Shown here piece after piece: positions 2,007-64,000 of a stretch of DNA of 64,000 nt. The stretch lies in sequence record PV577657; one strand, given 5' to 3'. A program made the position numbers and the translations under genes. This stretch comes from Escherichia phage vB_EcoS_MM-1. Below the pieces are notes generated by a model. It made no database searches. It had not been told where the DNA came from and saw only the letters and a program-made list of their open reading frames with translations. Each line of letters opens with the position of its first letter. Position 1 is the first letter of the stretch.

Positions 2007-2008
2007 AT

Positions 2009-3528: not shown

Positions 3529-3534
3529 CCGCGA

Positions 3535-3953: not shown

Positions 3954-3965
3954 AGGAGTATTGTT

Positions 3966-6752: not shown

Positions 6753-7257
6753 ACCAATGCCTCCTATGGCATTTATCCTAGAAAAGCTTAGGTATGACGA
6801 AAGTACTGGGGACTTAATTTGGTTATCTGGCCCAAGGAAGGGAAAGGTAGCGGGCTCCAAAATGAAAACTGGGAGACAGCTAGAGTTTATGATAAATGGG
6901 GGGCGGACAGCTTACTTAGCCCATAGAATAATCTGGTTTATAAAGACAGGTGAAGATCCTGGAGATAAAACTATTGACCATAAAGACGGTGATAGTTTAA
7001 ACAACTTGTGGGATAATTTACGTAAGGCTACCTATTCCGAAAATGGAAAGAATAAGAAGTGTTCTACTAATTCTACCGGATTCACTGGAGTTGTAAAACG
7101 AGGTAATAGGTATATGGCCTACGCTTACTGCGATGGAAAGCAACATATTTTTGGTAGACGAGATACCCCGGAAGAAGCCCATCAGCTATACCTTAGGGGA
7201 GTTAAAGAGCTGTTTGGTGAATTTAATCCCTCGGAGAGATATGACAGTGAAGAATAA
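6727..7257 (+). CDS. HNH homing endonuclease
   Basis: AYLAHRIIWFIKTGEDPGDKTIDHKDGDSLNNLWDNL; start overlaps the 3' end of the preceding gene. Confidence 0.8.
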   Translation: MEQLMKTHKPMPPMAFILEKLRYDESTGDLIWLSGPRKGKVAGSKMKTGRQLEFMINGGRTAYLAHRIIWFIKTGEDPGDKTIDHKDGDSLNNLWDNLRKATYSENGKNKKCSTNSTGFTGVVKRGNRYMAYAYCDGKQHIFGRRDTPEEAHQLYLRGVKELFGEFNPSERYDSEE

Positions 7258-7474
7258 AAAATGGGAAACAAGGAAGTTTCCAGTAAAAGAACGTAAAGTT
7301 CCTGTTTATGATACTTCGGAGAAGCTATGTAGGGTGGTACCGCACAGATTAGCTGGCATCCCTAACATATCCGAGTGGTTACTTAAACAACGGAGGACTA
7401 GCGTATCCCTTCGCATAGGGTTTGAGTTAGATAAAGTATATGCTGAACTTTCTTCTTTGCTCAAGGAATCGTAA
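7241..7474 (+). CDS. hypothetical basic protein
   Basis: ATG at 7241 with GGAGAG RBS; in frame with track ORF 7133..7474. Confidence 0.4.
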   Translation: MTVKNKKWETRKFPVKERKVPVYDTSEKLCRVVPHRLAGIPNISEWLLKQRRTSVSLRIGFELDKVYAELSSLLKES

Positions 7475-7482
7475 AAATTTAT

Positions 7483-7511
7483 TTGCATAGTGCAAAAAAT
7501 TTCTGTATAAT
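7483..7511 (+). promoter_or_regulatory. PN25-like strong early promoter
   Basis: TTGCAT, 17 nt, TATAAT, then AGATTCATAAATTTGAGAGAGGAG, near-identical to the T5 PN25 core and downstream box; palindrome TTTGCA-tag-TGCAAA overlaps the -35. Confidence 0.75.
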
Positions 7512-7542
7512 AGATTCATAAATTTGAGAGAGGAGTTTAAAT

Positions 7543-8247
7543 ATGGCTGGTTCTCGTAGAAAGAAACATATCCATGAAATCCCGGATGAAGTCTTTAAAA
7601 AGGTTATAGAGCATCTGGAGAACGGTGGTACTAAGAAAGCAGCATGTGAAATGCTCGGCGTATCATCCAATCCAACTATGGAAAGGATGATTGAAGAATG
7701 GCAAGACCGCCAGATTCAAGTTGCCGAAATGAAGAAAAAGAAACGTGGCACACTCATTGAAGGCATTGAGTTAGCTAACGTTATTGAGCAGTATTTATCT
7801 GGTGATTCTTTTGAAGAAATTGCCGATCGTAATTACCGCTCTGTAGCAATGGTTAAATCTGTTCTGGAACGATATGGTGCTCTACTTCGTTTGAACGATA
7901 TTGTAGATCCATTGAATCCTCCAATTATTCCTGATGATGCTGTAGCAGAAGAATTTGCAGTTGGTGAGCTTGTTTGGGTTCCTGGATACCAGTGTATCGG
8001 TGAAATCAAAAAAGCAATGGATAATCCTGTTGGTTGCTACCGTGTATGGCTTCTATCCGAAGGCAAACAACAGAACGTTCATTATATGAATTACGAGCTG
8101 GCTTCTGTTAAACATCTGGAAAAGTTAGGGGTAGACGTAAAATCTCTAGGGTATAAGTGGACTCGTGAAGAAATTATTACGTTGATTAACGAAGCTGTTA
8201 AGGCTGCTCTGAAACTTGATAAAGAAAAAGGAAAACGCCGTGAGTAA
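7543..8247 (+). CDS. helix-turn-helix DNA-binding protein
   Basis: RBS GAGAGGAG; N-terminal GGTKKAACEMLGVS HTH-like segment. Confidence 0.55.
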   Translation: MAGSRRKKHIHEIPDEVFKKVIEHLENGGTKKAACEMLGVSSNPTMERMIEEWQDRQIQVAEMKKKKRGTLIEGIELANVIEQYLSGDSFEEIADRNYRSVAMVKSVLERYGALLRLNDIVDPLNPPIIPDDAVAEEFAVGELVWVPGYQCIGEIKKAMDNPVGCYRVWLLSEGKQQNVHYMNYELASVKHLEKLGVDVKSLGYKWTREEIITLINEAVKAALKLDKEKGKRRE

Positions 8248-8491
8248 GCTAACAGATTTGCTTAAGGATGGTGAAACAAAAACCGTGTATCGTAGAAGCT
8301 GGGATAATGACAATAATGGCTTAGTGTTACTAACTTTAGACGCTGACTCAGATGTAGCTACCCAACATACCTGGGTAGCTGGTAATTATCCCTATAGTGA
8401 GGTTGTTACGTTAACAGTATGCGAAGCTATTGCCGACGATTGGGAGATTGCCAGCATTGATGATATGCTTGCTGTTGGCCTGGTGGAGTAA
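8216..8491 (+). CDS. hypothetical protein (start may be GTG at 8240)
   Basis: ORF track; overlaps upstream gene. Confidence 0.5.
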   Translation: MIKKKENAVSKLTDLLKDGETKTVYRRSWDNDNNGLVLLTLDADSDVATQHTWVAGNYPYSEVVTLTVCEAIADDWEIASIDDMLAVGLVE

Positions 8492-8508
8492 CTACTGAAA
8501 AATTTCAG

Positions 8509-8537
8509 TTGCTTAATCCTATAATTCTTGATATAAT
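8509..8537 (+). promoter_or_regulatory. sigma70-type early promoter
   Basis: TTGCTT, 17 nt, TATAAT. Confidence 0.6.
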
Positions 8538-8594
8538 ATTCTCATAGTTTGAAAGAACTATTCTGTTTAATTCTTAATTAAGGAAATATAAAAT

Positions 8595-9005
8595 ATGACT
8601 ACTCCAACTCAGTGGACTGATGAACTGTTCGAAAAAATGTCTTCCGAATACGTTGCTCGTATGGAGCAATTCCCAGAGGATGAACGTCCGGGTGTTAGCA
8701 TGGAAATTGTTAGCGAAATTGCCCAGGAAAATGGTGTAACTCCGAACGGTTTTCGTATGAAGCTGACTAAAGCAGGTTTGTATATCAAGAAAGCTGCTGG
8801 CTCTGCTTCTAAATCTAGCGCATCTACTGGAGAAAAGGCTTCTGGTGGTTCTCGTACCTCCAAAGCTCAAGCTCATGCCGATCTTCGTTCAGCATTCTCT
8901 GATGCTGGCTTAGCACCGGATTTTCTGGATGATGCAATTATCGATAAACTGACCGGTAAAGCGGCTGCTCATCTGGCAGAAGCAATCCGAGCTATCACTA
9001 AGTAA
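8595..9005 (+). CDS. hypothetical protein with HeH/SAP-like motif; codon usage suggests high expression
   Basis: Motif EIAQENGVTPNGFRMKLTKAG resembles the repeats in 12003..12770; GCT/CTG-rich codon usage. Confidence 0.55.
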   Translation: MTTPTQWTDELFEKMSSEYVARMEQFPEDERPGVSMEIVSEIAQENGVTPNGFRMKLTKAGLYIKKAAGSASKSSASTGEKASGGSRTSKAQAHADLRSAFSDAGLAPDFLDDAIIDKLTGKAAAHLAEAIRAITK

Positions 9006-9041
9006 TTTTTAGATAAATCCACCAACAAAAGGAACACAGTT

Positions 9042-9338
9042 ATGACCAAAGCTGAAATTATCGCACAATGTGAAAAATTTGGTGAGTTTTATCTTCATTA
9101 CGAGAAACTTCGTCAGAAAGGAACCACGTATCTTCAGGGTACGATGGAATTTGATCCAGCCCAAGATAAATATCTAGCTGAGCGTATTAAACGTGAACGT
9201 ATTCGTAAAGCGAAAGATGATGAGATCCTTGTCTTCTCTCGTACTAATGATAGCTTCCGTTTTATTCCTGTCGAAAAAGTCCGTCGTGTGACTAGCCTCC
9301 AATCAGAGTTAGATCGTGCTTCTCCAGTAGGCCGATAA
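9042..9338 (+). CDS. hypothetical protein
   Basis: ORF track; terminator immediately downstream. Confidence 0.55.
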   Translation: MTKAEIIAQCEKFGEFYLHYEKLRQKGTTYLQGTMEFDPAQDKYLAERIKRERIRKAKDDEILVFSRTNDSFRFIPVEKVRRVTSLQSELDRASPVGR

Positions 9339-9348
9339 GAAACCAATT

Positions 9349-9371
9349 AGCCCCTATATGGGGCTTTTTGT
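9349..9371 (+). terminator. rho-independent terminator
   Basis: AGCCCC-tata-GGGGCT followed by TTTTT. Confidence 0.7.
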
Positions 9372-9388
9372 GTATTTGGGATATGTAA

Positions 9389-9697
9389 ATGAGCGAACAG
9401 GTAAATCAAAACTATGAAGGACACGTTGATGACCAGTCCATCATACTTTGGGAGAAGGAGGGAGAACAAGTAAGATTAACAGTATCTGAATTTCGTGGGA
9501 ATCTATACATGGGTATTCGTTACTGGCTTCTTGATATTAATGATGAGTGGTTTCCAACGAAATCTGGCTTCTCTTTTCCTTACACCCTAGAAACAACATC
9601 ACAGCTTTTCTATGCGTTTACACAGATTCTTAGCGAATCTGAGGTTTTACATGAAGTACAGAAACGAGCTGAAGAACTCAAAGCCAAGAATGCCTAG
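9389..9697 (+). CDS. hypothetical protein
   Basis: ORF track. Confidence 0.55.
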   Translation: MSEQVNQNYEGHVDDQSIILWEKEGEQVRLTVSEFRGNLYMGIRYWLLDINDEWFPTKSGFSFPYTLETTSQLFYAFTQILSESEVLHEVQKRAEELKAKNA

Positions 9698-52202: not shown

Positions 52203-52227
52203 ATAATCTCCTATTATAAAAATGTAT

Positions 52228-52256
52228 TTGCTTTCATCCCTCTATTTTGCTATAAT
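52228..52256 (+). promoter_or_regulatory. PN25-like early promoter driving llp
   Basis: TTGCTT, 17 nt, TATAAT, then AGATTCATAAATTAGAAATGGAGAG. Confidence 0.65.
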
Positions 52257-52287
52257 AGATTCATAAATTAGAAATGGAGAGATAAAT

Positions 52288-53551: not shown

Positions 53552-53716
53552 TTTGACTTTTGCCAAATTTCATAAGATTACACATGGAGGTGTGTCCAGT
53601 GGGTCGGGGGAGAATACTTAGTCTGCTAACCGCCACCCCCCGTTACTATTATCATGGTAATTGTTTCACCCTGCAATTAAAATGGTTGCAGGGTGAAACA
53701 ATTTCAACTTTAATTA

Positions 53717-54493
53717 TTACGCAACTTTTAATTTCTCGATATATTGTTGCGGGCTGCAACTATATTCTGCGCGTTCTTCCTCGGTCATACCTTCCCAACA
53801 TAATTTCAAACGATCAGCTAGGAATTGATAATCATTATCATCATCGAGGGATTCATCAATAAAGGTTTCACCTATCAATGCCACGCCGATTGATAGAATA
53901 TCGTTAACGGCTTGCGCGTCCAGCGTTTTAAATCCGTATGATGCCGCCGCTGATAGTACACCCTTATGATCATCAATCATTGTAAAATCAGCGTTCGGAT
54001 ATAACTGTTTAAATAATTCAAAATAATAAGATTTATAAACTGCGTCTTTGCTGTGGTATATCTCGCTAACTTTATCAGCCTCAAAATATTTATGCAGTGT
54101 ATCGCGAGAAAACACGCGGATATTACTATCACCACGACCGCGCAAGCCTTGTTTGCGCAAATAATAATAGTCCGACTTGCTCATTAGTCGAGCGGTACAA
54201 ATAATGTTTAAAGTATTTGCGTCATTCATGCACTGGCGCATATATGTAACAAGGGGCAATAAAGTATCTTGCATTATTAAATCATGTTTGCAGGCTTCAT
54301 TTTTATACTTATTTAAATCTAAATTGCCCTCGCTATCAAAGCAAGGCGCTACACGATGGAAAGAATTAATGATAGTGCCGTCCAGATCCCAAATCATGAC
54401 GCGGGAAATATGCGGGAAATTACGGGTAATATTCATTTTAACTTGATTCATTTTGTTACGTTCTCCATTAAAGGGATTTAGTTTATCCAGCAT
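53717..54493 (-). CDS. dmp: HAD-family 5'-deoxyribonucleotidase-like protein (Dmp-like)
   Basis: HAD motif I MIWDLDGTIINS; first gene of the pre-early-like block. Confidence 0.65.
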   Translation of the reverse strand: MLDKLNPFNGERNKMNQVKMNITRNFPHISRVMIWDLDGTIINSFHRVAPCFDSEGNLDLNKYKNEACKHDLIMQDTLLPLVTYMRQCMNDANTLNIICTARLMSKSDYYYLRKQGLRGRGDSNIRVFSRDTLHKYFEADKVSEIYHSKDAVYKSYYFELFKQLYPNADFTMIDDHKGVLSAAASYGFKTLDAQAVNDILSIGVALIGETFIDESLDDDNDYQFLADRLKLCWEGMTEEERAEYSCSPQQYIEKLKVA

Positions 54494-54531
54494 TACCCGC
54501 TATTTATAAGCGGGTAATAATAAATCAACTA

Positions 54532-54924
54532 TTAAAGACCATAAGCCAACGCATCAGCGATAAAACTAACATCCTCACCGGATACGCTAGAACGAATCCC
54601 CGCGCAGGTGTATACCTTTGCGCTCGCTAGCTGATCATCAAGGCAAGCGGGGCAAGGCGCGACAACTGCAAAGGCTAGACCAGATTTTACCGCGTCAATA
54701 ATGATTGTTTCTTGTTTCATCGTGTCAACATAAACGCCTTTTGCTTTAATATGGCTGGTTAGTTTGCCTTGCGTATAGGCAAAGGTAGTAACCTGTAAAG
54801 CGTCATTGAAATCTAATAATTCATCAATAACGTGCCCCGCCTCGACGTGGTAACGTTCACCATTAGAATAAACCAGAACAATGGAAGACTGAGCGCGATC
54901 GAATGGAATATTTTGCTTTTTCAT
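54532..54924 (-). CDS. hypothetical pre-early protein
   Basis: ORF track; terminator hairpin downstream. Confidence 0.5.
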   Translation of the reverse strand: MKKQNIPFDRAQSSIVLVYSNGERYHVEAGHVIDELLDFNDALQVTTFAYTQGKLTSHIKAKGVYVDTMKQETIIIDAVKSGLAFAVVAPCPACLDDQLASAKVYTCAGIRSSVSGEDVSFIADALAYGL

Positions 54925-54963
54925 ACTTATAAAACTCCAATTAGTTTAATATAGGGATTTAAT

Positions 54964-55254
54964 TTATTTGATAATAATCTGCATCTGGTACGGCGTTAAT
55001 TCACCGTTTACGGGTAAATTATTATCGCTTAGCCACTCATAAAAAGCGCCATCATCATCAAAAGGAACAACATCATTATCACGATAATCGATGGAAATAA
55101 TGCCATCCGTATTAGTTTTGGCGGCTAGGATAGGCCCAAAGCTGTAAACTTTATCGGATTCCATTTCATCCGGTGAGATGAATGCTTTTTCGTCCAATGT
55201 TTTGGGTAATGTAACTTTCATTTTTTGACTCCTGTAATAGCGGCTATATTTCAA
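54964..55254 (-). CDS. hypothetical pre-early protein
   Basis: ORF track. Confidence 0.5.
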   Translation of the reverse strand: MKYSRYYRSQKMKVTLPKTLDEKAFISPDEMESDKVYSFGPILAAKTNTDGIISIDYRDNDVVPFDDDGAFYEWLSDNNLPVNGELTPYQMQIIIK

Positions 55255-55274
55255 GCCGCTAGGGGATAATTTAA

Positions 55275-56939
55275 TTACGCGAAAAATTTACCGTTTTTAA
55301 AGTCAATCAAAGTGCGCTGACCGTTTGCATAGGTAATTAAATGCGTTTGCGTCCAGCTTGACGCGCCAACGTTGTAACCCATATCCAGACTACCAGCTAC
55401 GCCAGCGGTATAAACGCCACCGTAAATGCTAGCGGTATGGGTGTGTCCCGTGTTTAGCTTGCCCAATTTCTTAAACTGTTTAGGATTGCCACGACTGCCG
55501 TTAATGCCGTTGTGACCGTGTACGCCGCACTCAATGCCTGCAATCTTGAAAGATTGATCAGTGGTTAGGAAAATGGCGTTAAACTCACAACCTGCAACCT
55601 TGCGCAGCGCATAATCTAGCACGTTAAAAGTATCATCATGATCACTGATCGCCGCGTAAATTGCAGCATTCAGGCGGTGATATAGTTCGGCGTTGGCTGG
55701 ATCGTCTTTGATGTTAGCATTACGATCATCTAACCAGCGGGATAGCGCCAAATCGTGATTAGATTCAACAATGATTGTTTGAGAGAAATCACGTTCCATT
55801 GATTCCAGCACGCGCCCCGTATCGATAAGATCATCCAGAACTTTATCACGTCCAGCGGCATACTGTTTTGCTAGGAATACACCGGATGCACGGTTATGAT
55901 GATTGCGCGATGTAAAATCATGCACGTCATGGATAAACTGATATTTTGGTTTAAGAATATCAAGCAAGCTATTTTCGCCAGCCCATGACGCAACGGCACA
56001 ATCATCATCTAATTTTTCCGCATGAATATCGCCATACTGCAAGCCTAAAACATGCCCCGATGTTTCATAGCATCCGGCAGGAGTAGCGCAAACATTCAGA
56101 TCATAAAACACCCCGCTTTCGTCCATTGTTTCAAGCTGGCGAACAAAAAATTCCCCGTCCTCGTCGAACTCAACAATCAGCGCGCCGAAGTTATGCAGAG
56201 CTTCCGCTTTTTGTCCTGCTTTCTGCTGAATATAGTTTTTAAGCGTTGCCGTTCCGGTTGAATACATACGGCGCACTACTTCACCTTTTAAAGCTGGCAC
56301 GCTTTCAGCGGTGATTTTAGCGTGACCAATTGCCAGCCCCTCAATATTGAGCGCCGTTGCAGTTTCTGCAAATCCTGAAAGCGGGTAATCTGCGGTTGGC
56401 AAAACATTAATTTCAGCCATGAAAGCAAAACGGCGGTTATTTAAAAACACGTTTTTGCTGCAAATATATTTATCAAATGCGGGATCGTATTTGATACCGT
56501 CTGCACCTTCTTCATTCTGGAAGCCATTTTTATTATAAATATACTTAGAAACAAGCAAATCAGCACCGATATATTCAGCGAATTTTTCCAGACTTGCTAA
56601 AAAGTTTTTATGCGGGAAAGTATTATTTTGAATCGACGTAATAATAAAGCGTTTACCCTGTTTTACTTCCCATTGCTCAACCGTACTAGAAACAATTCCC
56701 GCCGCTTCTGGGCGCTCATCGTTTTTAATGGCTTTTGCTACTTTTGCCGCTTTCGGTTTAGCTGGTTTATTTGCTTCCAGCCAGTCGCAGATAGCGGTTG
56801 AATGCTTCGTTGTATCGTAGACCGCTTTTGATATATCGTCGCAGACTTCCAGTTTAGTAGCGCGCAGACGTTTACCATAGAAATTAAAGTCAGCGGCCAT
56901 TTTCAGGATAACGGTTTGTTTTTCTGCGGAAATAATCAT
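55275..56939 (-). CDS. A1: A1-like pre-early protein, metallophosphatase fold
   Basis: 554 aa (T5 A1 is 556); phosphoesterase motifs GDIHAE and GHTHTASI. Confidence 0.7.
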   Translation of the reverse strand: MIISAEKQTVILKMAADFNFYGKRLRATKLEVCDDISKAVYDTTKHSTAICDWLEANKPAKPKAAKVAKAIKNDERPEAAGIVSSTVEQWEVKQGKRFIITSIQNNTFPHKNFLASLEKFAEYIGADLLVSKYIYNKNGFQNEEGADGIKYDPAFDKYICSKNVFLNNRRFAFMAEINVLPTADYPLSGFAETATALNIEGLAIGHAKITAESVPALKGEVVRRMYSTGTATLKNYIQQKAGQKAEALHNFGALIVEFDEDGEFFVRQLETMDESGVFYDLNVCATPAGCYETSGHVLGLQYGDIHAEKLDDDCAVASWAGENSLLDILKPKYQFIHDVHDFTSRNHHNRASGVFLAKQYAAGRDKVLDDLIDTGRVLESMERDFSQTIIVESNHDLALSRWLDDRNANIKDDPANAELYHRLNAAIYAAISDHDDTFNVLDYALRKVAGCEFNAIFLTTDQSFKIAGIECGVHGHNGINGSRGNPKQFKKLGKLNTGHTHTASIYGGVYTAGVAGSLDMGYNVGASSWTQTHLITYANGQRTLIDFKNGKFFA

Positions 56940-57029
56940 AGTAATAAAACTCCATTAAAGGGATTAGATTAATAACGGCAATATTGCCAAATATAACGCC
57001 TCAAATAATAGGCGTTATAATTTGCAACA

Positions 57030-57227
57030 TTAATTTAAAGGCACTAGGCTAGAACTAACACCACAAGCAACGGCAGCGATAAAACAAAGCAAGCCCAAAC
57101 GTTTTGCTAATTTAGATTTACGTTTAAAATAATATGAATCTAAATCATTTTGAAAATAAGCGAACAATAACGAGGGCGCCATAATAAACAAGCCTAGAAT
57201 TAATGATTCAGTAGGATAAAAGATCAT
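57030..57227 (-). CDS. small hydrophobic protein
   Basis: ORF track; two hydrophobic segments. Confidence 0.4.
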   Translation of the reverse strand: MIFYPTESLILGLFIMAPSLLFAYFQNDLDSYYFKRKSKLAKRLGLLCFIAAVACGVSSSLVPLN

Positions 57228-57284
57228 TTTAAAAACTCCTGATTTAAGGGAAGAAAATAACTATCGCTAAACAGTTATATTATT

Positions 57285-57315
57285 GCCCCCTCACTAAAAA
57301 AAGGGGGGCAAGGTA
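57285..57315 (-). terminator. hairpin terminator after the A2-like gene
   Basis: GCCCCCT-cactaaaaaa-AGGGGGGC. Confidence 0.55.
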
Positions 57316-57321
57316 TAACTA

Positions 57322-57729
57322 TTATTCGCCTGCGGCTTGTTTTACTTCCTCGGCAACGCCTAACAATTGCGCTACTGCGTCCAGCGTTTCAAGTTTTGCA
57401 CTTTCAAGGCTTGCCAGATCATCGGCATCTTTGATAATGCCGGAATCGATAGCGTGTTTTGCAATAACGCGTACATAATGAGCTTTGCGGATTGAACTAC
57501 CGCCGCCAACTTTGCGGGGCTTACCGCTTTTTTGATATGCTTTTGCGCTGGTCAATTTTGACCGAACGGATACGGGAGAAGCCGCGCCTACTGCTTTTGC
57601 AATCTCTTTCAGGCCGTCGCTATTTGCGAAATCTAAACCGTTTTCATTAATTAACTGTTGATACATGGAAACAGCTTTCTGAGTGTTTTCTTCATTCCAT
57701 GCGAATTTTGCGGTTTTAGCGTTAGTCAT
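57322..57729 (-). CDS. A2: A2-like pre-early DNA-binding protein
   Basis: 135 aa, basic centre (KSGKPRKVGGGSSIRKAH), adjacent to A1-like gene. Confidence 0.55.
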   Translation of the reverse strand: MTNAKTAKFAWNEENTQKAVSMYQQLINENGLDFANSDGLKEIAKAVGAASPVSVRSKLTSAKAYQKSGKPRKVGGGSSIRKAHYVRVIAKHAIDSGIIKDADDLASLESAKLETLDAVAQLLGVAEEVKQAAGE

Positions 57730-57825
57730 GATGTAACTCCTATTAGTTTAATTTAAGGGATTAGATTAACTTAATGTTAATCGTTATATCCCCCTGAAAT
57801 AAGGGGATATAAAGTTAACACTAAT

Positions 57826-58077
57826 TTACAATACAGCTTCCCATTTTTCGTTGCGTTGAACAACCTTTACAACATCGCCGGATTTAACGCGAACGCTAAA
57901 AACGGGCTTGCCGTTGTTACTACGTTCATTTTCAGCGTATACCGCGTCGATTGTATCGAACGGCATAAGCGCCGCACCTTTAATACGTTCGGCCTTTCCG
58001 GTTAATTCATCCGTTTTAGTAACGAAAGGAATGAAGACGAATTGACCAACTTTCGGCGCGGTAATAACGTTTTGCAT
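57826..58077 (-). CDS. hypothetical pre-early protein
   Basis: ORF track; hairpin TATATCCCC-N9-GGGGATATA downstream. Confidence 0.5.
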   Translation of the reverse strand: MQNVITAPKVGQFVFIPFVTKTDELTGKAERIKGAALMPFDTIDAVYAENERSNNGKPVFSVRVKSGDVVKVVQRNEKWEAVL

Positions 58078-58307
58078 AATATAAACTCCTAGTTATTTGG
58101 GGATTGTTCCGCATTACCTGCTAGAAAGTAACAGCAGGTAATAAGTAACAATCCGCTCGCCAATATAATCAATTTTAAAGAACTCCACGTAGGCCGCTAT
58201 ATCCCGTTAGGGGGCGGGATGCATTATGGTAAGCACCGACCGTCAAATTTTATCAAGTTATCGCTCTTATCGAACTGGGTACATCTTAAAACCTATCGGC
58301 TAGGTTG

Positions 58308-58511
58308 TCAAACAATTTTTTGCAATTTTTTATGATTTTCTTTTAGGTCAATCATAATATTTCGCCAGATCATTTCCAGACCTTGCTGGCGACCTTTCTT
58401 GTACTGCGTGAATCTATATCTTACTGATCTTTGAGCTACTGTCAACAAATTTTTTGTTTTGCTATCTAGTGCCTTAATAGGCTTGCCAGTGATCAAAAGC
58501 GTTTGTTTCAT
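58308..58511 (-). CDS. small basic protein
   Basis: RBS AAGGAA on the minus strand before ATG. Confidence 0.45.
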   Translation of the reverse strand: MKQTLLITGKPIKALDSKTKNLLTVAQRSVRYRFTQYKKGRQQGLEMIWRNIMIDLKENHKKLQKIV

Positions 58512-58956
58512 ATCGTCGATTCCTTATAATGAATAAGTTTACCGCCGATAGGCTTTAAGATGTACCCAATTTTTAAAGAGCGTGGCGGTAAACTTCCCGC
58601 CGTGTAGTTCGTCATTGCCGCCCTACGAGATAAATAATAGGGGATTCCCGAAAATGGCGCAACCTTATTTTTGTAAAGAAATGTAAAGGTAAAACTCACC
58701 GGACACCGTGCGGCGACGGCCTAAAATTAAAAGAAACGGGCGCGCGAATACCACAAAATAAAGCAAATAGGCAAGTAATTTTTTCATTTATATTTGCTTT
58801 GCCCTACTTGACAAAATCTAAAAAGCTCGTGGTAACGATAAACGGCTTATCCCCTTATGATGGGATGGCTAAAAACTTTATTGCGTTCTGGAGCGTTTTA
58901 GGCGCATTCTAGCCTTGTTGATAACTTATCCCCAAAAGCAAAAATGAAATTTTCCT

Positions 58957-58993
58957 AGTTATCCACTTGACTTTTATTTTCCAGTGGATAACT
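58957..58993. promoter_or_regulatory. inverted pair of DnaA-box-like sites
   Basis: AGTTATCCACT ... AGTGGATAACT flanking TGACTTTTATTTTCC. Confidence 0.5.
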
Positions 58994-59255
58994 ACTTATT
59001 TTATGAAATAAATTAATTGACTTTTATTTGTTAGTATGCATCGGAAAGATAGCAGACTAATAATTGCTAGAATGATAATCATGCTGGTGGATTGTAACGA
59101 CCTGAATTATTAGCAGACTATTAATCACGGAAAAATCTCATTAGCCAACTAACTATTTCATGATATATAATATACATATAAATTAATGAGAAATAATAAC
59201 TATAAGAAATCATCTAGCTAAGTGAGAACCACTATCATTTAAGTTATACACAAAG

Positions 59256-59264
59256 TTATCCACA
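59256..59264 (+). promoter_or_regulatory. consensus DnaA box
   Basis: TTATCCACA exact 9-mer. Confidence 0.5.
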
Positions 59265-59333
59265 GCACTTTTTGACTTGACACGATAGGCGGCGATATAA
59301 GGACTTTTACACAGACTTATCTACAGGTTATTC

Positions 59334-59353
59334 CACTGTATAAATATACAGGG
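59334..59353. promoter_or_regulatory. LexA (SOS) box-like palindrome
   Basis: cACTGTATAAATATACAGgg = CTGT-N8-ACAG with AT-rich core. Confidence 0.55.
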
Positions 59354-59618
59354 TAAAAAGGTAGTGTTAACAACTGCAATCAATTTTAAGCGGCTTAAAT
59401 CGCATTCTAACGAGCTAAACGCTGCGGGGTAATATTAAAGTAAAGCCTTAATGCGTCGCCCTGGTGGCTTCGCCGTGGTTTGCTCTTTATTGCACCGCTG
59501 CGCGGTTAGCATAAAAATAGGCGCTAGGCAAGGAAAATAAAAAGGTAAAATAATATTTGCCTATGCTAGAAATTTACCTTTATCATTCACTCACCGATTA
59601 ACGAGGGAGGCCGAACAA

Positions 59619-60398
59619 ATGAGGCTTTATAAACCTGATAATGCCACCGTTTTAAAAGGTGCATTGCGCAACCTGCTGGATGGTAGCAAGTCAACCAGCA
59701 TTAAACATTTTATTAACAAGATTGAAACTATTCATCAAAACTTTTTTGATGATTATGACGCTTATGATATGGATAGTTTTCTACCCTTATATAGACAAGG
59801 GGCAACGCTAGTTTTATATAATCGGGATTGCCATATCTTTACAGGCAGGGGAGCGGGGCCGGATACCGATTTTATTGTTGCGCAGGGTAATAATATTGTT
59901 GCGTATCATAGCAATTCAGGCCGTCAATCATTTAATATAAATAGTTTTGAGCTTATTGGACTTGATCTGATAAATGGACTTTCTAGCATTGAGGGATTTT
60001 TAGATGTTATCTGGAAGTATTTACCCGCTGGATGGCATAAGCCGGATAACGACGGATCTCAATATACCGGTATAATGGCTTTTGATGGCGACGGTAATTT
60101 TTTGTTACCACGGGAGCTATACCCATATATTTATGATGGGGATATAGAAAGCGCTGGTTTTTCTTTCTGGAAAGATGAAGATCAGATTATTGACAGCGTA
60201 GAAAACCATGCTGTAAATTCTAACACTCAAAGCGTTAACACTCAAACTACTGAAAACAAAGGAAAAAACACTATGACCAAGATTGCTAACATCGTTGCCG
60301 CTAATAAATCCGCCGTTGTAAATGCTGCAAAACTGGAAGCGGGTAAAATTGCACTGACTCAAATCACGAAAGTAGCGGCTAAAAAGCACCGTTCATGA
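59619..60398 (+). CDS. hypothetical protein
   Basis: Strong RBS GAGGGAGG; 259 aa. Confidence 0.6.
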   Translation: MRLYKPDNATVLKGALRNLLDGSKSTSIKHFINKIETIHQNFFDDYDAYDMDSFLPLYRQGATLVLYNRDCHIFTGRGAGPDTDFIVAQGNNIVAYHSNSGRQSFNINSFELIGLDLINGLSSIEGFLDVIWKYLPAGWHKPDNDGSQYTGIMAFDGDGNFLLPRELYPYIYDGDIESAGFSFWKDEDQIIDSVENHAVNSNTQSVNTQTTENKGKNTMTKIANIVAANKSAVVNAAKLEAGKIALTQITKVAAKKHRS

Positions 60399-60628
60399 TT
60401 AAAGGCTATATTGATACGCCGATTGGTCGAGTAGTGATTGCTAACCTGCTAAGTGTAGCGGTTGACCAGTACGCACCGACTAACCAGAAAGCGAAAGCGG
60501 TAGCAGGGGCGGCTATGGAAGCGGCAATGCTGGAAATGGTGCAAAGTTTTAACATCGCTGAAATGATTGATGAAATGGTGAAAGGTATTGATATTTCTAC
60601 TTTTACCACTAGCACCGAAATCGAGTAA
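60395..60628 (+). CDS. hypothetical protein
   Basis: ATGA overlap with previous gene; terminator hairpin AGTGGGGA-ttatt-TCCCCACT after stop. Confidence 0.5.
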   Translation: MIKGYIDTPIGRVVIANLLSVAVDQYAPTNQKAKAVAGAAMEAAMLEMVQSFNIAEMIDEMVKGIDISTFTTSTEIE

Positions 60629-60693
60629 TAATATTTAGTGGGGATTATTTCCCCACTTTACTACTCCCTTGTTAATTAATAGGAGGCTAACTA

Positions 60694-61188
60694 ATGGCTG
60701 AGGAAAAATACGGCTTCTCGCTAGGAGAAGTGAGCACGGCTAAACATGATATGATCATTTTAGTCGATTGTCATACTGGCTATTGCGGAGAAGGGAACAC
60801 CGAAGAATACTTTGTTCCTGCTGGTACGGATCTGGACGCTTTCGCTCATGAAATGGCTATTGATAATGCTTCTCGTTTTGGTAGCGATGGCTATGAAGAC
60901 GAAGAAACTGGCGAATGGTATGAAAATGAAAACGTATATGCAAGCCTTTATCATTATCAGCTAAGTAAATCCGGCACATATGTAAACGGCGGCGATCCTA
61001 TTAATTCCGTCATGAAATTAATTATTAAATATGGTGGCGTCGAGATAATTGATAACAAAGCGGTAATATACGCAAACCGATTAAAACAGCTTGTTTATAT
61101 TCCTGATAGTACCCGATGGGATGAATACGCTGTTTTGCATGACGAATTGAAACGATGTTTCAATATTGAATCCCTGCAAGTAGTCTAA
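60694..61188 (+). CDS. hypothetical acidic protein
   Basis: Strong RBS AGGAGG; 164 aa. Confidence 0.6.
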   Translation: MAEEKYGFSLGEVSTAKHDMIILVDCHTGYCGEGNTEEYFVPAGTDLDAFAHEMAIDNASRFGSDGYEDEETGEWYENENVYASLYHYQLSKSGTYVNGGDPINSVMKLIIKYGGVEIIDNKAVIYANRLKQLVYIPDSTRWDEYAVLHDELKRCFNIESLQVV

Positions 61189-61293
61189 TGTAAAGTTTTG
61201 TAAAGGTCGCCTTTTATGGTGGCCTTTTTTGTTATAATGCTTTTACACCAAAACGGTGGATTGAAAATTTTCCCAAAAATTTGGAGGCTTAAA

Positions 61294-61524
61294 ATGGTTG
61301 CTTATTCTTCTGCTAGTCATCTGTTTACCGCGCAAGGCTGGGTATCTAATCGTGCTGTCATCTATGAAATGGTGCAGGAGTTCGGCATTGCTAAAACTTA
61401 TAATACCATTCAGGAACTATATAACGCCGATAAAATCGATCAGCAAACGGCTGGCTTTTTACTGGATACCCTGAAAGCTGAACATTGCACTAAAAAACAA
61501 GCCGCTAAAATTGTTTTAATGTAA
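61294..61524 (+). CDS. hypothetical protein
   Basis: ATG 61294 with GGAGG RBS (track start 61216); terminator CGGGGCG-ttacttt-CGCCCCG downstream. Confidence 0.5.
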   Translation: MVAYSSASHLFTAQGWVSNRAVIYEMVQEFGIAKTYNTIQELYNADKIDQQTAGFLLDTLKAEHCTKKQAAKIVLM

Positions 61525-61573
61525 TTAATAACGGGGCGTTACTTTCGCCCCGATAACTAGGAGGCTATCACAA

Positions 61574-61723
61574 ATGGTTATTTTTCGATCTATTTTAGCG
61601 GGTATCTTGGGCGCTATTTTATCGTTATTTGCGATAGCTTTCGGCGTTCACGCTGTTATTATTGGCGCTGGCATTGCTGCGTTTTCTTATCTGCTGGGCT
61701 GCATGACTAGTAAAGGAGAATAA
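61574..61723 (+). CDS. small two-helix hydrophobic protein (49 aa)
   Basis: RBS AGGAGG; Gly/Ala-rich TM segments; below ORF-track length cutoff. Confidence 0.45.
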   Translation: MVIFRSILAGILGAILSLFAIAFGVHAVIIGAGIAAFSYLLGCMTSKGE

Positions 61724-61725
61724 AA

Positions 61726-61938
61726 ATGATCCGCAACGTTTCCCTTGCACGTTCGAAAGGCTTTAAGCTGGTGGATGTTAACACGTTCGAGTGGGAAGAT
61801 TGTAAAATCGAATATGTAGCACGTAACAAAAATGCCTTTCGTGTTACCGAGAAAAAATTTGATAAGCGCGGCAACGTGATAGCTGAAACAGTTAAACATT
61901 TTGCCACCTTTTACGCTGCTTTCCGTGGGGTATTATGA
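61726..61938 (+). CDS. hypothetical protein
   Basis: RBS AAAGGAGAA. Confidence 0.5.
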   Translation: MIRNVSLARSKGFKLVDVNTFEWEDCKIEYVARNKNAFRVTEKKFDKRGNVIAETVKHFATFYAAFRGVL

Positions 61939-62057
61939 TTCAGCAAATTAAAACGGCTTTTCGTTTTTGGGGCGTCCTGCCTTCAATTGGTTTTATTCTG
62001 ATAATTATTAGTCAGCTAATGATCATCGGCGGAACTATTTGGGAGCTATGCAAATGA
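61935..62057 (+). CDS. small hydrophobic protein (40 aa)
   Basis: ATGA overlaps at both ends. Confidence 0.35.
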   Translation: MIQQIKTAFRFWGVLPSIGFILIIISQLMIIGGTIWELCK

Positions 62058-62398
62058 TAATTTATGAAGGCAATCGCTTTGTTGCTAATTGCCGTCCGGC
62101 ATTATTAGCAAACTATTTAAACCAGCTTTCCCCAGCTTATAAGGGCGTTATTAATATTTATGAGGGAAAGGCGCATTATAAAATTAATGCGGTCGTTGCC
62201 CGTGAACTAGCATTTCAATTTTTGACCTTTGCATCTTGTGACGTTCAGGTTATGGGTGAGGCATTAATCGCGGAAAATGAAGAGGATTTTATTAATATTT
62301 TCCGTAAGGTATGCACTGAGCGCTTGATAATGAAAGGCGCGTATATTCAATCAACTGCGGAAAGTATTGAAACAGCATTTCGAAAGGTGGCGCAATGA
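62054..62398 (+). CDS. hypothetical protein
   Basis: ATG 62054 (track start TTG 62039); 114 aa. Confidence 0.5.
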   Translation: MIIYEGNRFVANCRPALLANYLNQLSPAYKGVINIYEGKAHYKINAVVARELAFQFLTFASCDVQVMGEALIAENEEDFINIFRKVCTERLIMKGAYIQSTAESIETAFRKVAQ

Positions 62399-62498
62399 GA
62401 TTATATATTTTCGTTGGTAATGTTAAGGCAGCTAATGATTCCGCTGGTGGCGACAACGTTCGCCACCATTGGCAAAAATATATTTACTAGGAGTTATT

Positions 62499-62606
62499 AT
62501 GTCTGGTTTAATGTTTACCTTATTAGTAGTTTATAGCATAATTACGGCAGGAATAGTAACTTATGTTACTAGTAAAATTTGGCCGGGAATATATGGTAAT
62601 TTTTAA
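62499..62606 (+). CDS. small hydrophobic protein (35 aa)
   Basis: RBS AGGAG; single TM helix. Confidence 0.35.
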   Translation: MSGLMFTLLVVYSIITAGIVTYVTSKIWPGIYGNF

Positions 62607-62621
62607 TAACGGAGCGTTATT

Positions 62622-62825
62622 ATGAGCAATAAAATTATTGTAACCAAAATCAGTACAATGGTTGATGTTTTTTACGTGCCAGATACGCCGGAGAATCGGC
62701 AAGCGGTCGAGCGGGGCGAATATGATAAAGTGATTTATGATCACGATGGTTATTATCAGTATTTGGTGGATTCCTACGGGGAGGAGGAGAAGATCACGCA
62801 TCGACTACCGGAGGAGGGTTTATGA
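62622..62825 (+). CDS. hypothetical acidic protein
   Basis: RBS ACGGAG; 67 aa. Confidence 0.5.
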   Translation: MSNKIIVTKISTMVDVFYVPDTPENRQAVERGEYDKVIYDHDGYYQYLVDSYGEEEKITHRLPEEGL

Positions 62826-62980
62826 AACGATGGTTTAATCACTGGTACAAGCGGTTTTTAGTACGCCGTCGCAAGTCTAGGCATCAAGATGAGTGGCGGG
62901 AGTGGGCAAAGCGTAACGGTTGCCCGCTACTATAATAATCACGGGGCGCAACTATCGGGAAGTGCCCCCAATTCTCAAAT

Positions 62981-63001
62981 GAGAATCATTCTCATTTGAC
63001 C
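62981..63001. repeat. perfect 21-bp palindrome
   Basis: AAATGAGAAT-C-ATTCTCATTT; partial copies recur at the ends of the 67-bp repeats. Confidence 0.8.
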
Positions 63002-63192
63002 GCGCCCGCGATGGTTAGCCTGCTAATGATTAGGGTGTTACGTGTCGCCTTGTGTGATCGTTAGCGAGCTAACTAATTTTCAAGCCTCCTCCAATTTTGC
63101 CCTTGTTTTAGTATCTCCACCAAAATTAAACGCGTTAGAATGCGATCTAGGACGTTTTAACGCTATATTAGAATTATTCACTGCGTAGGAAT

Positions 63193-63212
63193 ACTGTATA
63201 TTTATACAGTAG
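63193..63212. promoter_or_regulatory. LexA (SOS) box-like palindrome
   Basis: TACTGTATATTTATACAGTA. Confidence 0.6.
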
Positions 63213-63219
63213 GATAAGC

Positions 63220-63302
63220 TGTGGATAAGTCTGTTAATAACACCCCAAAATGGCTAGGATTCTGTCAAGTCAAATCGTGCTGTTAATAAGTCTGTGGATA
63301 AC
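63220..63302. promoter_or_regulatory. two consensus DnaA boxes within an inverted motif pair
   Basis: TGTGGATAA at 63220-63228 and 63294-63302, each linked to GTCTGTTAATAA. Confidence 0.5.
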
Positions 63303-63317
63303 TTAAATAATAGTGTT

Positions 63318-63488
63318 TCTCACTTCCGTTCTTAAATACGAATCACTATCATTTGCGTTCCACTTTCTAAATGAGAATCATTCTGCTTTTTAAAGGAGAA
63401 TCGTTTCACTTCCTGAATAATTCTCACTTCCATTCTTAAATGCGAATTATTATCATTCTCATTCCGCTTTTTAAATGAGAATCATTCT
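63318..63488. repeat. two about 67-bp direct repeats, each ending in the AAATGAGAATCATTCT half-palindrome
   Basis: Units at 63318-63384 and 63422-63488 are near-identical. Confidence 0.75.
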
Positions 63489-63511
63489 CATTATCATTCG
63501 CATTCAGGCGA

Positions 63512-63529
63512 GCAGGGCAATTGCCCTGC
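63512..63529. repeat. perfect 18-bp palindrome
   Basis: GCAGGGCAA-TTGCCCTGC. Confidence 0.7.
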
Positions 63530-63535
63530 GCTTTT

Positions 63536-63758
63536 GTGCAAATCCGACATTGCTCCACGGGTGTTACGTGCGGGCGTGTATGTGCGAATCCGACAATTTT
63601 TGGTAGTGTGCAAATCCGACCCGAAAAATTTTTATAGTGTGCAAATCCGACAATGAATTTTCCTAAAAACTCCAGCAATCACGAACTGCGTTCGAATCCT
63701 GTGGGGTATGTGCAAATCCGACACGGTTTTTCTAGGATTAAGATGTGCGAATCCGACA
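63536..63758 (+). repeat. array of six direct copies of GTGC(A/G)AATCCGAC(A), irregularly spaced, each followed by a T-rich tract
   Basis: Copies at 63536, 63582, 63608, 63638, 63710 and 63745. Confidence 0.8.
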
Positions 63759-64000
63759 AGATTTTTGTGACTTCGATTGGAGGGTGTGTGATTGTGTGAG
63801 TTTGGGGAGAAGTTGAGAGAGCGAGAAAAATTTGAGGGAACTGCGGGAGGGGCGCATGTTTGGTGCGGAGCACCTGATTTGCGGGGATTTTGGGGAAGAG
63901 TTGAGAAGATTTGGGTTAATTTGAGATTAGTGCAGAAAAAGTAAAATTTTATTAGCTAAATGGAGCAAAATAGCTTGACAAGTGAAAATTCTTGTGGCTC

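What the first reader, a model, noticed from the sequence alone, without database searches (positions are those of the whole stretch)
58957..59315. Clustered DnaA-box-like sites in the divergent regulatory region
An inverted pair AGTTATCCACT/AGTGGATAACT (58957-58993), an exact TTATCCACA (59256-59264) and a near-box TTATCTACA (59307-59315) lie within about 350 bp between the minus-strand pre-early-like genes and the plus-strand genes. T5 terminal-repeat regions are known to carry DnaA boxes near the injection-stop region; this could be an origin-like or DnaA-regulated element.
Basis: partly seen in the sequence, partly recalled or inferred. Interest (0 to 1): 0.45.

Follow-up and report, generated by a model that had tools for sequence, protein, structure and literature searches.

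The report
T5-type DnaA-box cluster in terminal repeat
The flagged sites are a real, conserved cluster of host DnaA-protein binding motifs, with a LexA site beside them, in the non-coding centre of a T5-like phage's terminal repeat; most of it is an element already described in phage T5, it is not a replication origin, and its function is still untested.

Summary
The window is a T5-like phage, 100% identical to Escherichia phages ECOP18 and vB_EcoS_MM-2. [quoted passage not shown]

There are 8 DnaA-like boxes in 410 bp; elsewhere the maximum is 3.

They form two modules:
- **59220-59351** is the published T5 'IRC-spacer-IRD' element. It has two tandem box pairs and an inverted partner at 63194-63325, next to the injection-stop region.
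It is an alternative allele, present in about half of the relatives and absent from T5. The sources I could search do not mention it.

Variation across 160 homologous boxes follows the DnaA consensus TT(A/T)TNCACA.

Next to the boxes in both copies of the element is a near-consensus LexA (SOS) box, apparently unreported.

oriC features are absent. A published T5 deletion that removes the element is viable.

Best reading: an accessory module on first-step-transfer DNA that binds host proteins. Function is unproven.

The parts
53594..64000 (.). Long terminal repeat of a T5-like phage. It runs past the window end. This is context for everything below.
   Evidence: The window is identical to positions 1-9630 of the annotated LTR of vB_EcoS_MM-2, starting at window 53594.
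58905..58998 (.). Module 1 ('allele A'): a 94-bp cassette with four DnaA-like boxes. T5 carries a box-free 'allele B' at the same place.
   Evidence: It is present with 0-1 mismatches in 10 of 20 distinct relatives. It is found in 121 phage records, all at 95% identity or more. T5 and 9 others carry allele B. Klebsiella and Erwinia relatives keep three of the four boxes.
58916..58934 (.). Back-to-back box pair: TTATCAACA (minus strand, 58916-58924), one C, then TTATCCCCA (plus strand, 58926-58934).
   Evidence: The same two variant 9-mers are the 'DnaA*' boxes that Davison lists for T5.
58957..58993 (.). It is two facing boxes TTATCCACT (8 of 9 positions) that flank a TTGACT hexamer.
   Evidence: It folds into a 12-bp hairpin on either strand (-16.2 kcal/mol, z -5.0). 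T5's allele B has no hairpin there.
58995..59243 (.). AT-rich spacer (73% A+T) between the two modules. T5 and others have an HNH endonuclease gene inserted here.
59142..59171 (+). Conserved promoter-like site TAGCCA-18-TATAAT, pointing towards module 2. It is predicted only.
   Evidence: The TATAAT is conserved in the aligned relatives shown that have this segment, T5 included. One to three copies of a repeat of about 32 nt lie between it and module 2.
59220..59351 (+). Module 2: the IRC-spacer-IRD element of T5 'Repeat Region 2'.
   Evidence: It is a 132-nt inverted repeat, 77% complementary, with 63194-63325. It is homologous to T5 6022-6152, annotated as inverted repeats C and D. It aligns without gaps across 20 phages. 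It is present in 540 phage records.
59244..59264 (+). Tandem box pair 1: TTATACACA-AAG-TTATCCACA. Both are exact consensus boxes.
59305..59325 (+). Tandem box pair 2: TTTTACACA-GAC-TTATCTACA. Sixteen of 20 relatives have TTATCCACA at that position.
59334..59353 (.). LexA (SOS) box-like palindrome CACTGTATAAATATACAGGG. T5 annotates the partner copy in Repeat Region 3 as 'palindrome D'; this copy lies within T5's inverted repeat D.
   Evidence: It is the second-best 20-mer of the window with a LexA matrix (21.0 bits; known sites score 12.9-24.1). It fits CTGT-N8-ACAG. A promoter-like site on the minus strand, 59370 to 59343, has its -10 hexamer inside this box.
63174..63325 (-). Partner element (IRD'-spacer-IRC') beside the injection-stop region. 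Boxes lie at 63220, 63232, 63281 and 63293 on the minus strand, an extra box TTATTCACT at 63174 on the plus strand, and the LexA-like box TACTGTATATTTATACAGTA at 63192-63211.
   Evidence: The T5 record AY692264 annotates 'injection stop signal' over the homologous stretch.

Best explanation
The flagged sites are selectively maintained binding sites for the host initiator protein DnaA. They lie on the first-injected (first-step-transfer) DNA of a T5-like phage and form two modules.

- **Module 2 (59220-59351)** is the internal copy of a rigid 132-bp unit found across the T5 family. The unit is two tandem pairs of DnaA boxes, 12 nt apart within a pair and 61 nt between pairs, then a half-box that overlaps a LexA (SOS) box. 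Its inverted twin sits beside the injection-stop region.
- **Module 1 (58905-58998)** is an optional cassette that adds four weaker boxes.

Most likely mechanism (inferred): soon after entry, host DnaA, and LexA at the adjacent palindrome, load on these sites and build a nucleoprotein complex of fixed geometry. That complex would modulate the pre-early phase by damping or insulating transcription across the divergent control region, and possibly by pairing with the twin element.

This internal copy is accessory rather than essential. It is not a replication origin.

Shown here: identity with the T5 element, clustering, architecture, conservation, a substitution pattern that matches DnaA and LexA specificity, and dispensability of module 2 in T5.

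Inferred only: that DnaA and LexA actually bind, and what the binding does.
For: **Identity**
- The region is 100% identical to T5-like phages and lies in their annotated LTR.
- It aligns with T5's inverted repeats C and D.
- Davison describes the same paired boxes with 3-bp spacing in 25 T5-like phages.

**Clustering**
- 8 boxes lie in 410 bp, against at most 3 elsewhere. None of 100 simulations reached 8.

**Specificity, from 160 homologous box instances**
- Positions 1 and 2 never vary.
- Position 3 is A or T only; position 5 takes any base.
- Positions 4 and 7-9 are 95-99% constant.
- This matches TT(A/T)TNCACA, apart from a recurrent C-to-A change at position 6.

**Selection**
- Among phages, the minor-allele fraction is about 0.016 at the specifying positions (0.015 and 0.017 in the two copies). 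It is 0.13-0.18 at positions 3 and 5.
- Between the two old copies in one genome, specifying positions are 97% identical. The 40-nt spacer is 57% identical.

**Geometry**
- There is no indel in 40 copies of the 135-nt unit. A Klebsiella phage keeps the same offsets.

**Breadth**
- Box pairs and the palindrome persist in Klebsiella, Erwinia and Vibrio relatives whose DNA is otherwise barely alignable.

**LexA**
- The two palindromes are the two best LexA-matrix hits in the 64-kb window, and in every relative except the Vibrio phage, which keeps one strong site.
- The partner copy is 19 of 20 identical to the E. coli tisB LexA operator used in binding studies (PMC3159453).

**Host factor rather than phage factor**
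- No ORF in the repeat co-varies with presence of module 1.

**Accessory role**
- The T5 mutant 'DLDR' has a deletion whose primers place its left edge at the equivalent of window 58995 and its right edge at about 62829. This removes module 2. The mutant is viable and makes small plaques.
Against: - No binding data exist for DnaA or LexA on any T5-like phage. The BF23 paper says so explicitly.
- The whole 135-nt unit is conserved, not only the boxes. The left flank CACTATCATTTAAG and a TTGACA in the spacer are also conserved. Other ligands may therefore be involved.
That is not what selection for best DnaA affinity would give.
- About a quarter of boxes carry A at position 6, outside the published consensus.
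- The distance from the predicted promoter to the boxes varies by 0, about 31 or about 64 nt among relatives. This argues against a precise operator-promoter geometry.
- The small-plaque phenotype of the T5 deletion is confounded by the loss of eight genes.
- My LexA matrix was built from sites recalled from memory.
Confidence: 0.55

Rival explanations
1. Davison's injection-stop model applies to this copy as well. Membrane-bound DnaA would capture the boxes as the DNA enters, so this element would act with its twin as part of the stop signal, or as a second, earlier pause site.
For: - The element is the inverted twin of the one next to the stop point.
- Davison argues that both copies must be part of the stop process. 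He cites an unexplained band of about 5.8 kb in old first-step-transfer gels, close to this element's position in T5.
- The fixed geometry suggests a higher-order complex.
Against: - The element lies about 4 kb short of the stop point.
- T5 lacking it is viable.
- Davison notes that some T5-like phages lack it entirely and calls it of secondary importance.
- The model is untested.
Confidence: 0.2
2. The motifs are bound by a phage pre-early protein, for example the DNA-binding protein A2, and only resemble DnaA boxes.
For: - A2 is encoded about 1.2 kb away and is annotated as a DNA-binding protein needed for second-step transfer.
- The final T in the inverted pair, and the conserved non-box flanks, are not explained by DnaA.
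Against: - The substitution pattern follows the DnaA consensus at its two degenerate positions.
- The boxes persist in phages of Vibrio, Klebsiella and Erwinia. DnaA-box specificity is shared among those hosts (my own knowledge).
- No repeat-encoded ORF co-varies with module 1.
- In Klebsiella and Erwinia phages only one arm of the inverted pair is present, which argues against a dimer that reads the inverted repeat.
Confidence: 0.15
3. It is a DnaA-dependent replication origin, or a relic of one: box clusters flanking an AT-rich stretch that unwinds.
For: Two box clusters flank a 250-bp stretch of 73% A+T, with GC as low as 0.21. A conserved promoter-like site points into module 2.
Against: - There are no GATC sites (2.6 expected) and no match to the 13-mer GATCTNTTNTTTT with up to 2 mismatches.
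- The AT-rich spacer is split by a homing-endonuclease gene in T5 and others.
- T5 lacks module 1, and module 2 can be deleted.
- T5 origins were mapped near the genome centre, and the replication genes are not expressed while only this DNA is in the cell.
Confidence: 0.03
4. The reader's inverted pair is mainly an RNA or DNA hairpin, such as a bidirectional intrinsic terminator, and its likeness to DnaA boxes is incidental.
For: It forms a 12-bp stem of -16.2 and -16.4 kcal/mol on the two strands (z about -5). On the plus strand a U-rich run, ACUUAUUUUAU, follows it.
Against: - The loop is 15 nt and the stem is AU-rich. The terminator scan did not call it.
- T5's allele at the same place has no stable hairpin.
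- Klebsiella and Erwinia relatives keep only one arm.
- The neighbouring back-to-back pair uses the same motif without forming a hairpin.
Confidence: 0.05
5. The two 132-bp copies are relics of an ancient inverted duplication, for example the terminal inverted repeats of a cassette that brought in the rightward pre-early genes, and have no present function.
For: They bracket the rightward gene block as inverted repeats, at a distance that varies among phages. The internal copy is dispensable in T5.
Against: The two copies have diverged to 57% identity in the spacer yet keep 97% at the box-specifying positions and the LexA arms. There are no indels in 40 copies. This is purifying selection, not decay.
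Confidence: 0.05

Closest known systems
Phage T5 'Repeat Region 2', the inverted repeats C and D with their spacer (IRC-spacer-IRD). Annotated in GenBank AY587007; described by Davison 2020, bioRxiv 10.1101/866236.
   Same: It has the same position in the terminal repeat and the same 131-132-bp inverted partner near the injection stop. It has the same two pairs of DnaA boxes separated by 3 bp, and it aligns without gaps.
   Different: - T5 has lost one box of the first pair; this phage has all four.
- This phage's fourth box, TTATCTACA, is a variant seen only here among the 20 phages compared.
- T5 has an HNH gene inserted to the left of the element.
T5 injection-stop-region element IRD'-spacer-IRC' ('Repeat Region 3').
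   Same: It is the same 132-bp unit in inverted orientation, with four boxes and the palindrome.
   Different: It lies about 3.8 kb to the right, next to the stop point and the other repeat families. It is the copy the stop-signal hypothesis is mainly about. It was retained in the viable T5 deletion mutant, whereas the flagged copy was removed.
Non-origin DnaA-box clusters of the E. coli chromosome, such as datA and the DARS sites (my own knowledge; not tested here).
   Same: They are clusters of consensus and near-consensus DnaA boxes that assemble DnaA complexes without starting replication.
   Different: There is no sequence homology to any E. coli genome. The box arrangement differs: tandem pairs at 12-nt phasing with a LexA box attached. 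The function here is unknown.
E. coli SOS operators, for example the tisB operator TACTGTATAAATAAACAGTA (PMC3159453).
   Same: The palindrome next to the boxes is 19 of 20 identical in the partner copy and 15 of 16 identical in the core in the flagged copy.
   Different: It sits in a virulent phage's non-coding repeat rather than at a host damage-response gene. Whether it overlaps a working promoter is unknown.

Membership tests
T5-family IRC-spacer-IRD element (Repeat Region 2) | It lies in the long terminal repeat, between the leftward (dmp-A1-A2-hdi) and rightward pre-early genes. | tested here: met
T5-family IRC-spacer-IRD element (Repeat Region 2) | It has an inverted-repeat partner of about 131 bp beside the injection-stop region. 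| tested here: met
   59220-59351 pairs with 63194-63325: 132 nt, 77% complementary.
T5-family IRC-spacer-IRD element (Repeat Region 2) | It has two pairs of DnaA or DnaA* boxes, each pair separated by 3 bp, at fixed positions. | tested here: met
   Boxes start at 59244/59256 and 59305/59317. They are in the same register as in 19 relatives, T5 included.
DnaA box (E. coli consensus TT(A/T)TNCACA, as quoted) | The 9-mer matches the consensus. | tested here: met
   Three boxes match fully (59244, 59256, 59305). Five have one mismatch (58916, 58926, 58959, 58983, 59317).
DnaA box (E. coli consensus TT(A/T)TNCACA, as quoted) | DnaA protein binds the site. | not testable with these tools
   No binding data exist for T5-like phages. 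The only indirect support is the substitution pattern.
oriC-type DnaA-dependent origin | An AT-rich unwinding element with 13-mer repeats lies next to the boxes. | tested here: not met
   An AT-rich stretch is present, but nothing matches GATCTNTTNTTTT with up to 2 mismatches.
oriC-type DnaA-dependent origin | GATC methylation sites are clustered there. | tested here: not met
   There are 0 GATC sites in 58700-59618, against 2.6 expected.
oriC-type DnaA-dependent origin | The arrangement is conserved and needed for propagation, and replication starts there. | tested here: not met
   The spacing between modules is broken by insertions. T5 lacks module 1. Module 2 is deletable. Replication-start mapping could not be tested here; Davison cites central origins.
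LexA (SOS) operator | It has the CTGT-N8-ACAG palindrome with an AT-rich centre, close to TACTG(TA)5CAGTA. | tested here: met
   59334-59353 and 63192-63211 are the top two matrix scores in the window. The second is 19 of 20 identical to the tisB operator.
LexA (SOS) operator | LexA binds the site and represses an overlapping promoter. | not testable with these tools
   Only a promoter-like match exists, TTAACA-16-TATATT on the minus strand, with its -10 hexamer inside the box. The -35 part is not conserved in T5.
Intrinsic terminator (applies to the inverted pair only) | A stable GC-rich stem with a short loop, followed by a U tract, and conserved in relatives. | tested here: not met
   The stem is stable, but the loop is 15 nt and the stem AU-rich. 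The scan did not call it. T5's allele has no hairpin.

The most novel reading that the evidence does not exclude
The 132-bp unit would be a composite landing pad for two host proteins: four or five DnaA boxes fused to a near-perfect LexA operator. It is placed as mirror images on both sides of the rightward pre-early gene block. The DnaA-LexA complex formed on it would be the long-sought physical basis, or a main control, of T5's pause between first-step and second-step DNA transfer. Module 1 would be an optional third DnaA pad that about a quarter of sequenced T5-like phages add. The Fur-box-like palindromes in the same repeat would extend the idea to a third host regulator.
Probability: 0.2. 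Interest if true: 0.7.

Novelty: new member of a known kind. Interest (0 to 1): 0.35.

Why it matters
How T5 stops DNA injection after 8% of its genome, and then restarts, has been an open question since the 1960s. The only sequence-based proposal invokes these DnaA boxes, and it has never been tested.

This analysis does not solve the question, but it sharpens it in four ways:
- The boxes are under selection precisely at the DnaA-specifying positions.
- The unit has a rigid geometry that is kept from Vibrio phages to E. coli phages.
- A consensus-grade LexA operator is part of the unit. This adds lexA mutant hosts to the obvious experiments.
- The internal copy flagged here is dispensable in T5, so experiments should target the copy next to the stop point, or both copies.

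For the finding as submitted the result is mostly confirmatory. It is a known feature of the T5 family, not an origin.

Tried and rejected
- **Classical T5 promoters.** I searched the repeat for PN25 and PH207, recalled from memory. PN25-like sequences occur only outside the repeat, at 7473 and 52218, so they say nothing about this region.
- **A phage gene co-varying with module 1.** I clustered all ORFs in 20 loci. Nothing correlated, apart from an anti-correlation with the HNH gene.
- **RNA families.** Rfam gave only a chance-level miRNA hit at 53660.
- **Neighbouring ORFs.** Pfam gave only domains of unknown function.
- **Homology to E. coli genomes or plasmids.** None was found, so the element was not recently taken from a host or plasmid control region.
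- **Terminator reading of the inverted pair.** Rejected, because the hairpin is not conserved.
- **RNA structure of module 2.** It is not better than shuffled sequence, with z of -0.4 and -0.7.
- **oriC hallmarks.** Absent.
- **'LexA cleavage timer' for restarting transfer.** I considered it and think it unlikely to be essential. T5-like phages are recorded on E. coli DH5a hosts, and DH5a is recA1 by my own knowledge.
- **Promoter assignment by sequence.** Several weak candidates exist but none could be confirmed. Candidate -35/-10 pairs inside the module 2 spacer have the wrong spacing or are not conserved in the partner copy (my own reading).
- **Papers not reached.** Davison's 2015 review is not held in the library. 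Heusterspreute 1987 was not retrieved either. I therefore cannot exclude that module 1 or the LexA likeness is mentioned there.

Full report
**What the window is**

A 1.6-kb stretch around the finding is 100% identical to Escherichia phages ECOP18 and vB_EcoS_MM-2. It is 80-99% identical to several hundred T5-like phages of Escherichia and Salmonella. In MM-2 it lies inside the annotated left terminal repeat. The window matches that repeat base for base from window 53594 to 63223, which is repeat positions 1-9630.

The neighbouring genes are the T5 pre-early set:
- A1 ('DNA transfer protein') and A2 ('DNA binding protein'), on the minus strand to the left.
- The hdi homologue, also on the minus strand to the left.
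- The homologue of T5 gene 011, on the plus strand from 59619.

**Checking the observation**

The inverted pair (58957-58967 and 58983-58993) and the exact TTATCCACA (59256-59264) are as stated. The near-box TTATCTACA is real but sits at 59317-59325, ten bases right of the stated interval. The stated interval overlaps another box, TTTTACACA at 59305-59313.

Allowing at most one mismatch to TTATNCACA, there are eight boxes, starting at:
- 58916 (minus strand)
- 58926 (plus)
- 58959 (plus)
- 58983 (minus)
- 59244, 59256, 59305 and 59317 (all plus)

The whole window holds 80 such boxes, which is what its composition predicts (83.9). Eight within 410 bp is exceptional:
- The largest count elsewhere outside the repeat is 3.
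- The largest count in 100 simulated windows is 6.
- The Poisson probability for one such stretch is 5e-8.

**Two modules**

*Module 2 (59220-59351).* This is one arm of a 132-nt inverted repeat whose other arm is 63194-63325. It aligns with T5's annotated inverted repeats C and D. This is the 'IRC-spacer-IRD' element of T5 'Repeat Region 2'. Its partner is 'IRD'-spacer-IRC'' in 'Repeat Region 3', beside the injection stop.

Davison's comparison of 25 T5-like phages describes exactly this arrangement. He reports eight DnaA or near-DnaA boxes per repeat, always in pairs separated by 3 bp, two pairs in each element. The T5 record AY692264 annotates 'injection stop signal' over the partner element. 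Similar sequence occurs in 540 phage records, usually at two places per genome copy.

It is not in T5. At the same place T5 has a sequence that shares the stretches between the boxes (AAAAGCAAAA.TGAAA, TTGACTTTTA, TTATTTTAT) but differs at the box positions.

- Among 20 distinct relatives, ten carry this 'allele A' with 0-1 mismatches and ten carry T5's 'allele B'.
- In the phage collection, allele A is in 121 records, all at 95% identity or more. Allele B is in 102 records at 78-100%.
- Both alleles occur in Escherichia and in Salmonella phages.
- Klebsiella and Erwinia relatives keep three of the four boxes at the same spacing but lack the second arm of the inverted pair.
- Davison's 2020 text does not contain TTATCCACT and says little about Repeat Region 1.

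**Are these really DnaA-type sites?**

Three lines of comparative evidence say the ligand has DnaA-like specificity.

1. *Variation within boxes.* I compared 160 homologous box instances (4 positions, 2 elements, 20 phages).
   - Positions 1 and 2 never vary.
   - Position 3 is A (143) or T (17).
   - Position 5 takes all four bases.
   - Positions 4 and 7-9 are 95-99% constant.
   - This is the consensus TT(A/T)TNCACA, apart from a recurrent C-to-A change at position 6 in 42 of 160 instances.
2. *Variability among phages.* It is about ten times lower at the specifying positions (0.015-0.017) than at positions 3 and 5 (0.13-0.18).
3. *The two copies within one genome.* They have diverged to 57% identity in the 40-nt spacer. 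They remain 97% identical at the specifying positions.

The unit also has a rigid geometry. There is no insertion or deletion in 40 copies of 135 nt, and a Klebsiella phage has the same offsets. A Vibrio phage of the same family, alignable over only a third of the element, still has a tandem TTATCCACA pair followed by the palindrome.

No ORF in the repeat co-varies with module 1. This fits a host ligand.

Some points count against a simple DnaA story:
- The two boxes of the inverted pair end in T in all phages.
- Non-box flanks are also conserved.
- Nobody has tested binding.

**An added component: a LexA box**

Directly after the fourth box, overlapping a half-box, lies a palindrome; T5's record annotates the partner copy as 'palindrome D'. 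In the partner element it reads TACTGTATATTTATACAGTA (63192-63211). In the flagged element it reads CACTGTATAAATATACAGGG (59334-59353).

- Both fit CTGT-N8-ACAG, which occurs 3 times in the window against 0.7 expected.
- I built a matrix from 19 E. coli SOS boxes recalled from memory. With it these are the two best 20-mers in the 64 kb, at 25.4 and 21.0 bits. The known sites score 12.9-24.1, and the next best hit in the window scores 17.5.
- The homologous sites are the top two in every relative, including the Klebsiella and Erwinia phages. The Vibrio phage keeps one.
- Read on the minus strand, the partner copy is 19 of 20 identical to the E. coli tisB operator used in LexA binding studies.
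- The CTGT/ACAG arms are 97% identical between the two copies.

Davison's paper mentions neither LexA nor SOS. No paper in the held library links T5-like phages to a LexA site. I could not read the older T5 papers, so I cannot claim priority for this observation.

**What it does**

*An origin is unlikely.* The reasons:
- No GATC sites and no 13-mer unwinding motif.
- The AT-rich stretch between the modules is interrupted by an HNH gene in T5 and others, and by a variable number of repeats.
- T5 lacks module 1.
- T5 origins map to the genome centre, according to the sources Davison cites.

*A terminator reading of the inverted pair fails on conservation*.

*Known and predicted promoters.*
- A 2026 preprint reports two experimentally characterised leftward promoters within or overlapping hdi. 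Their predicted counterparts are at window 58445 to 58418 and 58311 to 58283 on the minus strand.
- The same preprint reports a third characterised promoter, rightward, just upstream of gene 011. Its predicted counterpart is at window 59557-59586.
- The flagged sites lie between these promoters.
- Sequence alone also suggests a conserved rightward promoter-like site at 59142-59171.
- It suggests two leftward ones as well, at 59228 to 59199 and at 59370 to 59343. The last has its -10 hexamer inside the LexA box.
- None of these is verified.
- Their distance to the boxes is not fixed.

*The most direct functional evidence is published.* The T5 mutant 'DLDR' deletes 'hegG to 017'. Its junction primers place the deletion from just after the T5 equivalent of window 58995 to about window 62829. 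This removes the whole of module 2 and keeps the stop-proximal partner. The phage is viable with smaller plaques. That phenotype is confounded by the loss of eight genes. Davison also notes that some T5-like phages lack this copy.

My best reading is that the flagged region is an accessory module that binds host proteins, DnaA and probably LexA. It would shape events in the pre-early phase. It is not an origin and is not the essential stop signal.

**Novelty and score**

The core of the finding is a known feature of the T5 family, seen here in another member. Three things go beyond the sources I could search:
- the allele dimorphism of module 1;
- the quantitative evidence for selection at the DnaA-specifying positions;
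- the LexA-operator identity of the palindrome.

These make an old open problem somewhat more testable but do not resolve it. I score interest at 0.35.

Noticed in passing
window 59334-59353 and 63192-63211: A palindrome beside the DnaA boxes (annotated 'palindrome D' in T5 for the partner copy) is a near-consensus LexA (SOS) operator in both copies of the element. The two sites are the two best LexA-matrix hits in the window, and the partner copy is 19 of 20 identical to the E. coli tisB operator. It is conserved in Klebsiella, Erwinia and Vibrio relatives. The T5 literature I could search does not mention it.
   Followed up: partly
window 53826-53840, 62980-62994, 63441-63455, 63476-63490: There are Fur-box-like palindromes. 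One is a perfect 7-1-7 motif, TGATAATCATTATCA, at 53826. TGAGAATCATTCTCA occurs twice, plus one further variant. Four of the window's five hits with at most 2 mismatches lie in the terminal repeat. T5's receptor FhuA is Fur-regulated (my own knowledge). This is a lead only.
   Followed up: no
window 59023-59110 (insertion point); L002 (T5) about 5420-6000: T5 and about half of the relatives carry an HNH homing-endonuclease gene inserted in the AT-rich spacer between the two box modules. This phage has none there.
   Followed up: partly
window 59183-59219: A unit of about 32 nt (AATAATAACTATAAGAAATCATC...) is present in one to three tandem copies in different relatives, just left of module 2. 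This changes the distance from the predicted promoter to the boxes.
   Followed up: no
window 58967-58979 and 59018-59030; also 59272-59282 and 63255-63270: TTGACTTTTATTT occurs twice, 51 nt apart, and TTGACTTGACA sits in the spacer of both 132-bp elements. No usable -10 hexamer lies at the right distance from any of them, so they may be sites for another protein rather than promoters.
   Followed up: no
window 63534-63764: There are five or more copies of GTGC(A/G)AATCCGAC at irregular spacing, right of the partner element. By position they look like T5's 'direct repeat D' family; I did not align them. Their function is unknown.
   Followed up: no
window 58262-58300 and 58544-58582: A 39-nt inverted repeat, 85% complementary, brackets the hdi homologue and its internal promoter-like sites. 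It corresponds to T5's inverted repeats A and A'.
   Followed up: no
window 7473-7519 and 52218-52264: Two sequences closely resemble the classical strong T5 promoter PN25, with 7 and 11 mismatches in 47 nt. Both lie outside the terminal repeat (the query sequence was recalled from memory).
   Followed up: no
window 63224 onward: The window and the otherwise identical phage MM-2 part company by an insertion or deletion of about 113 nt that starts inside the first DnaA box of the stop-proximal element.
   Followed up: no
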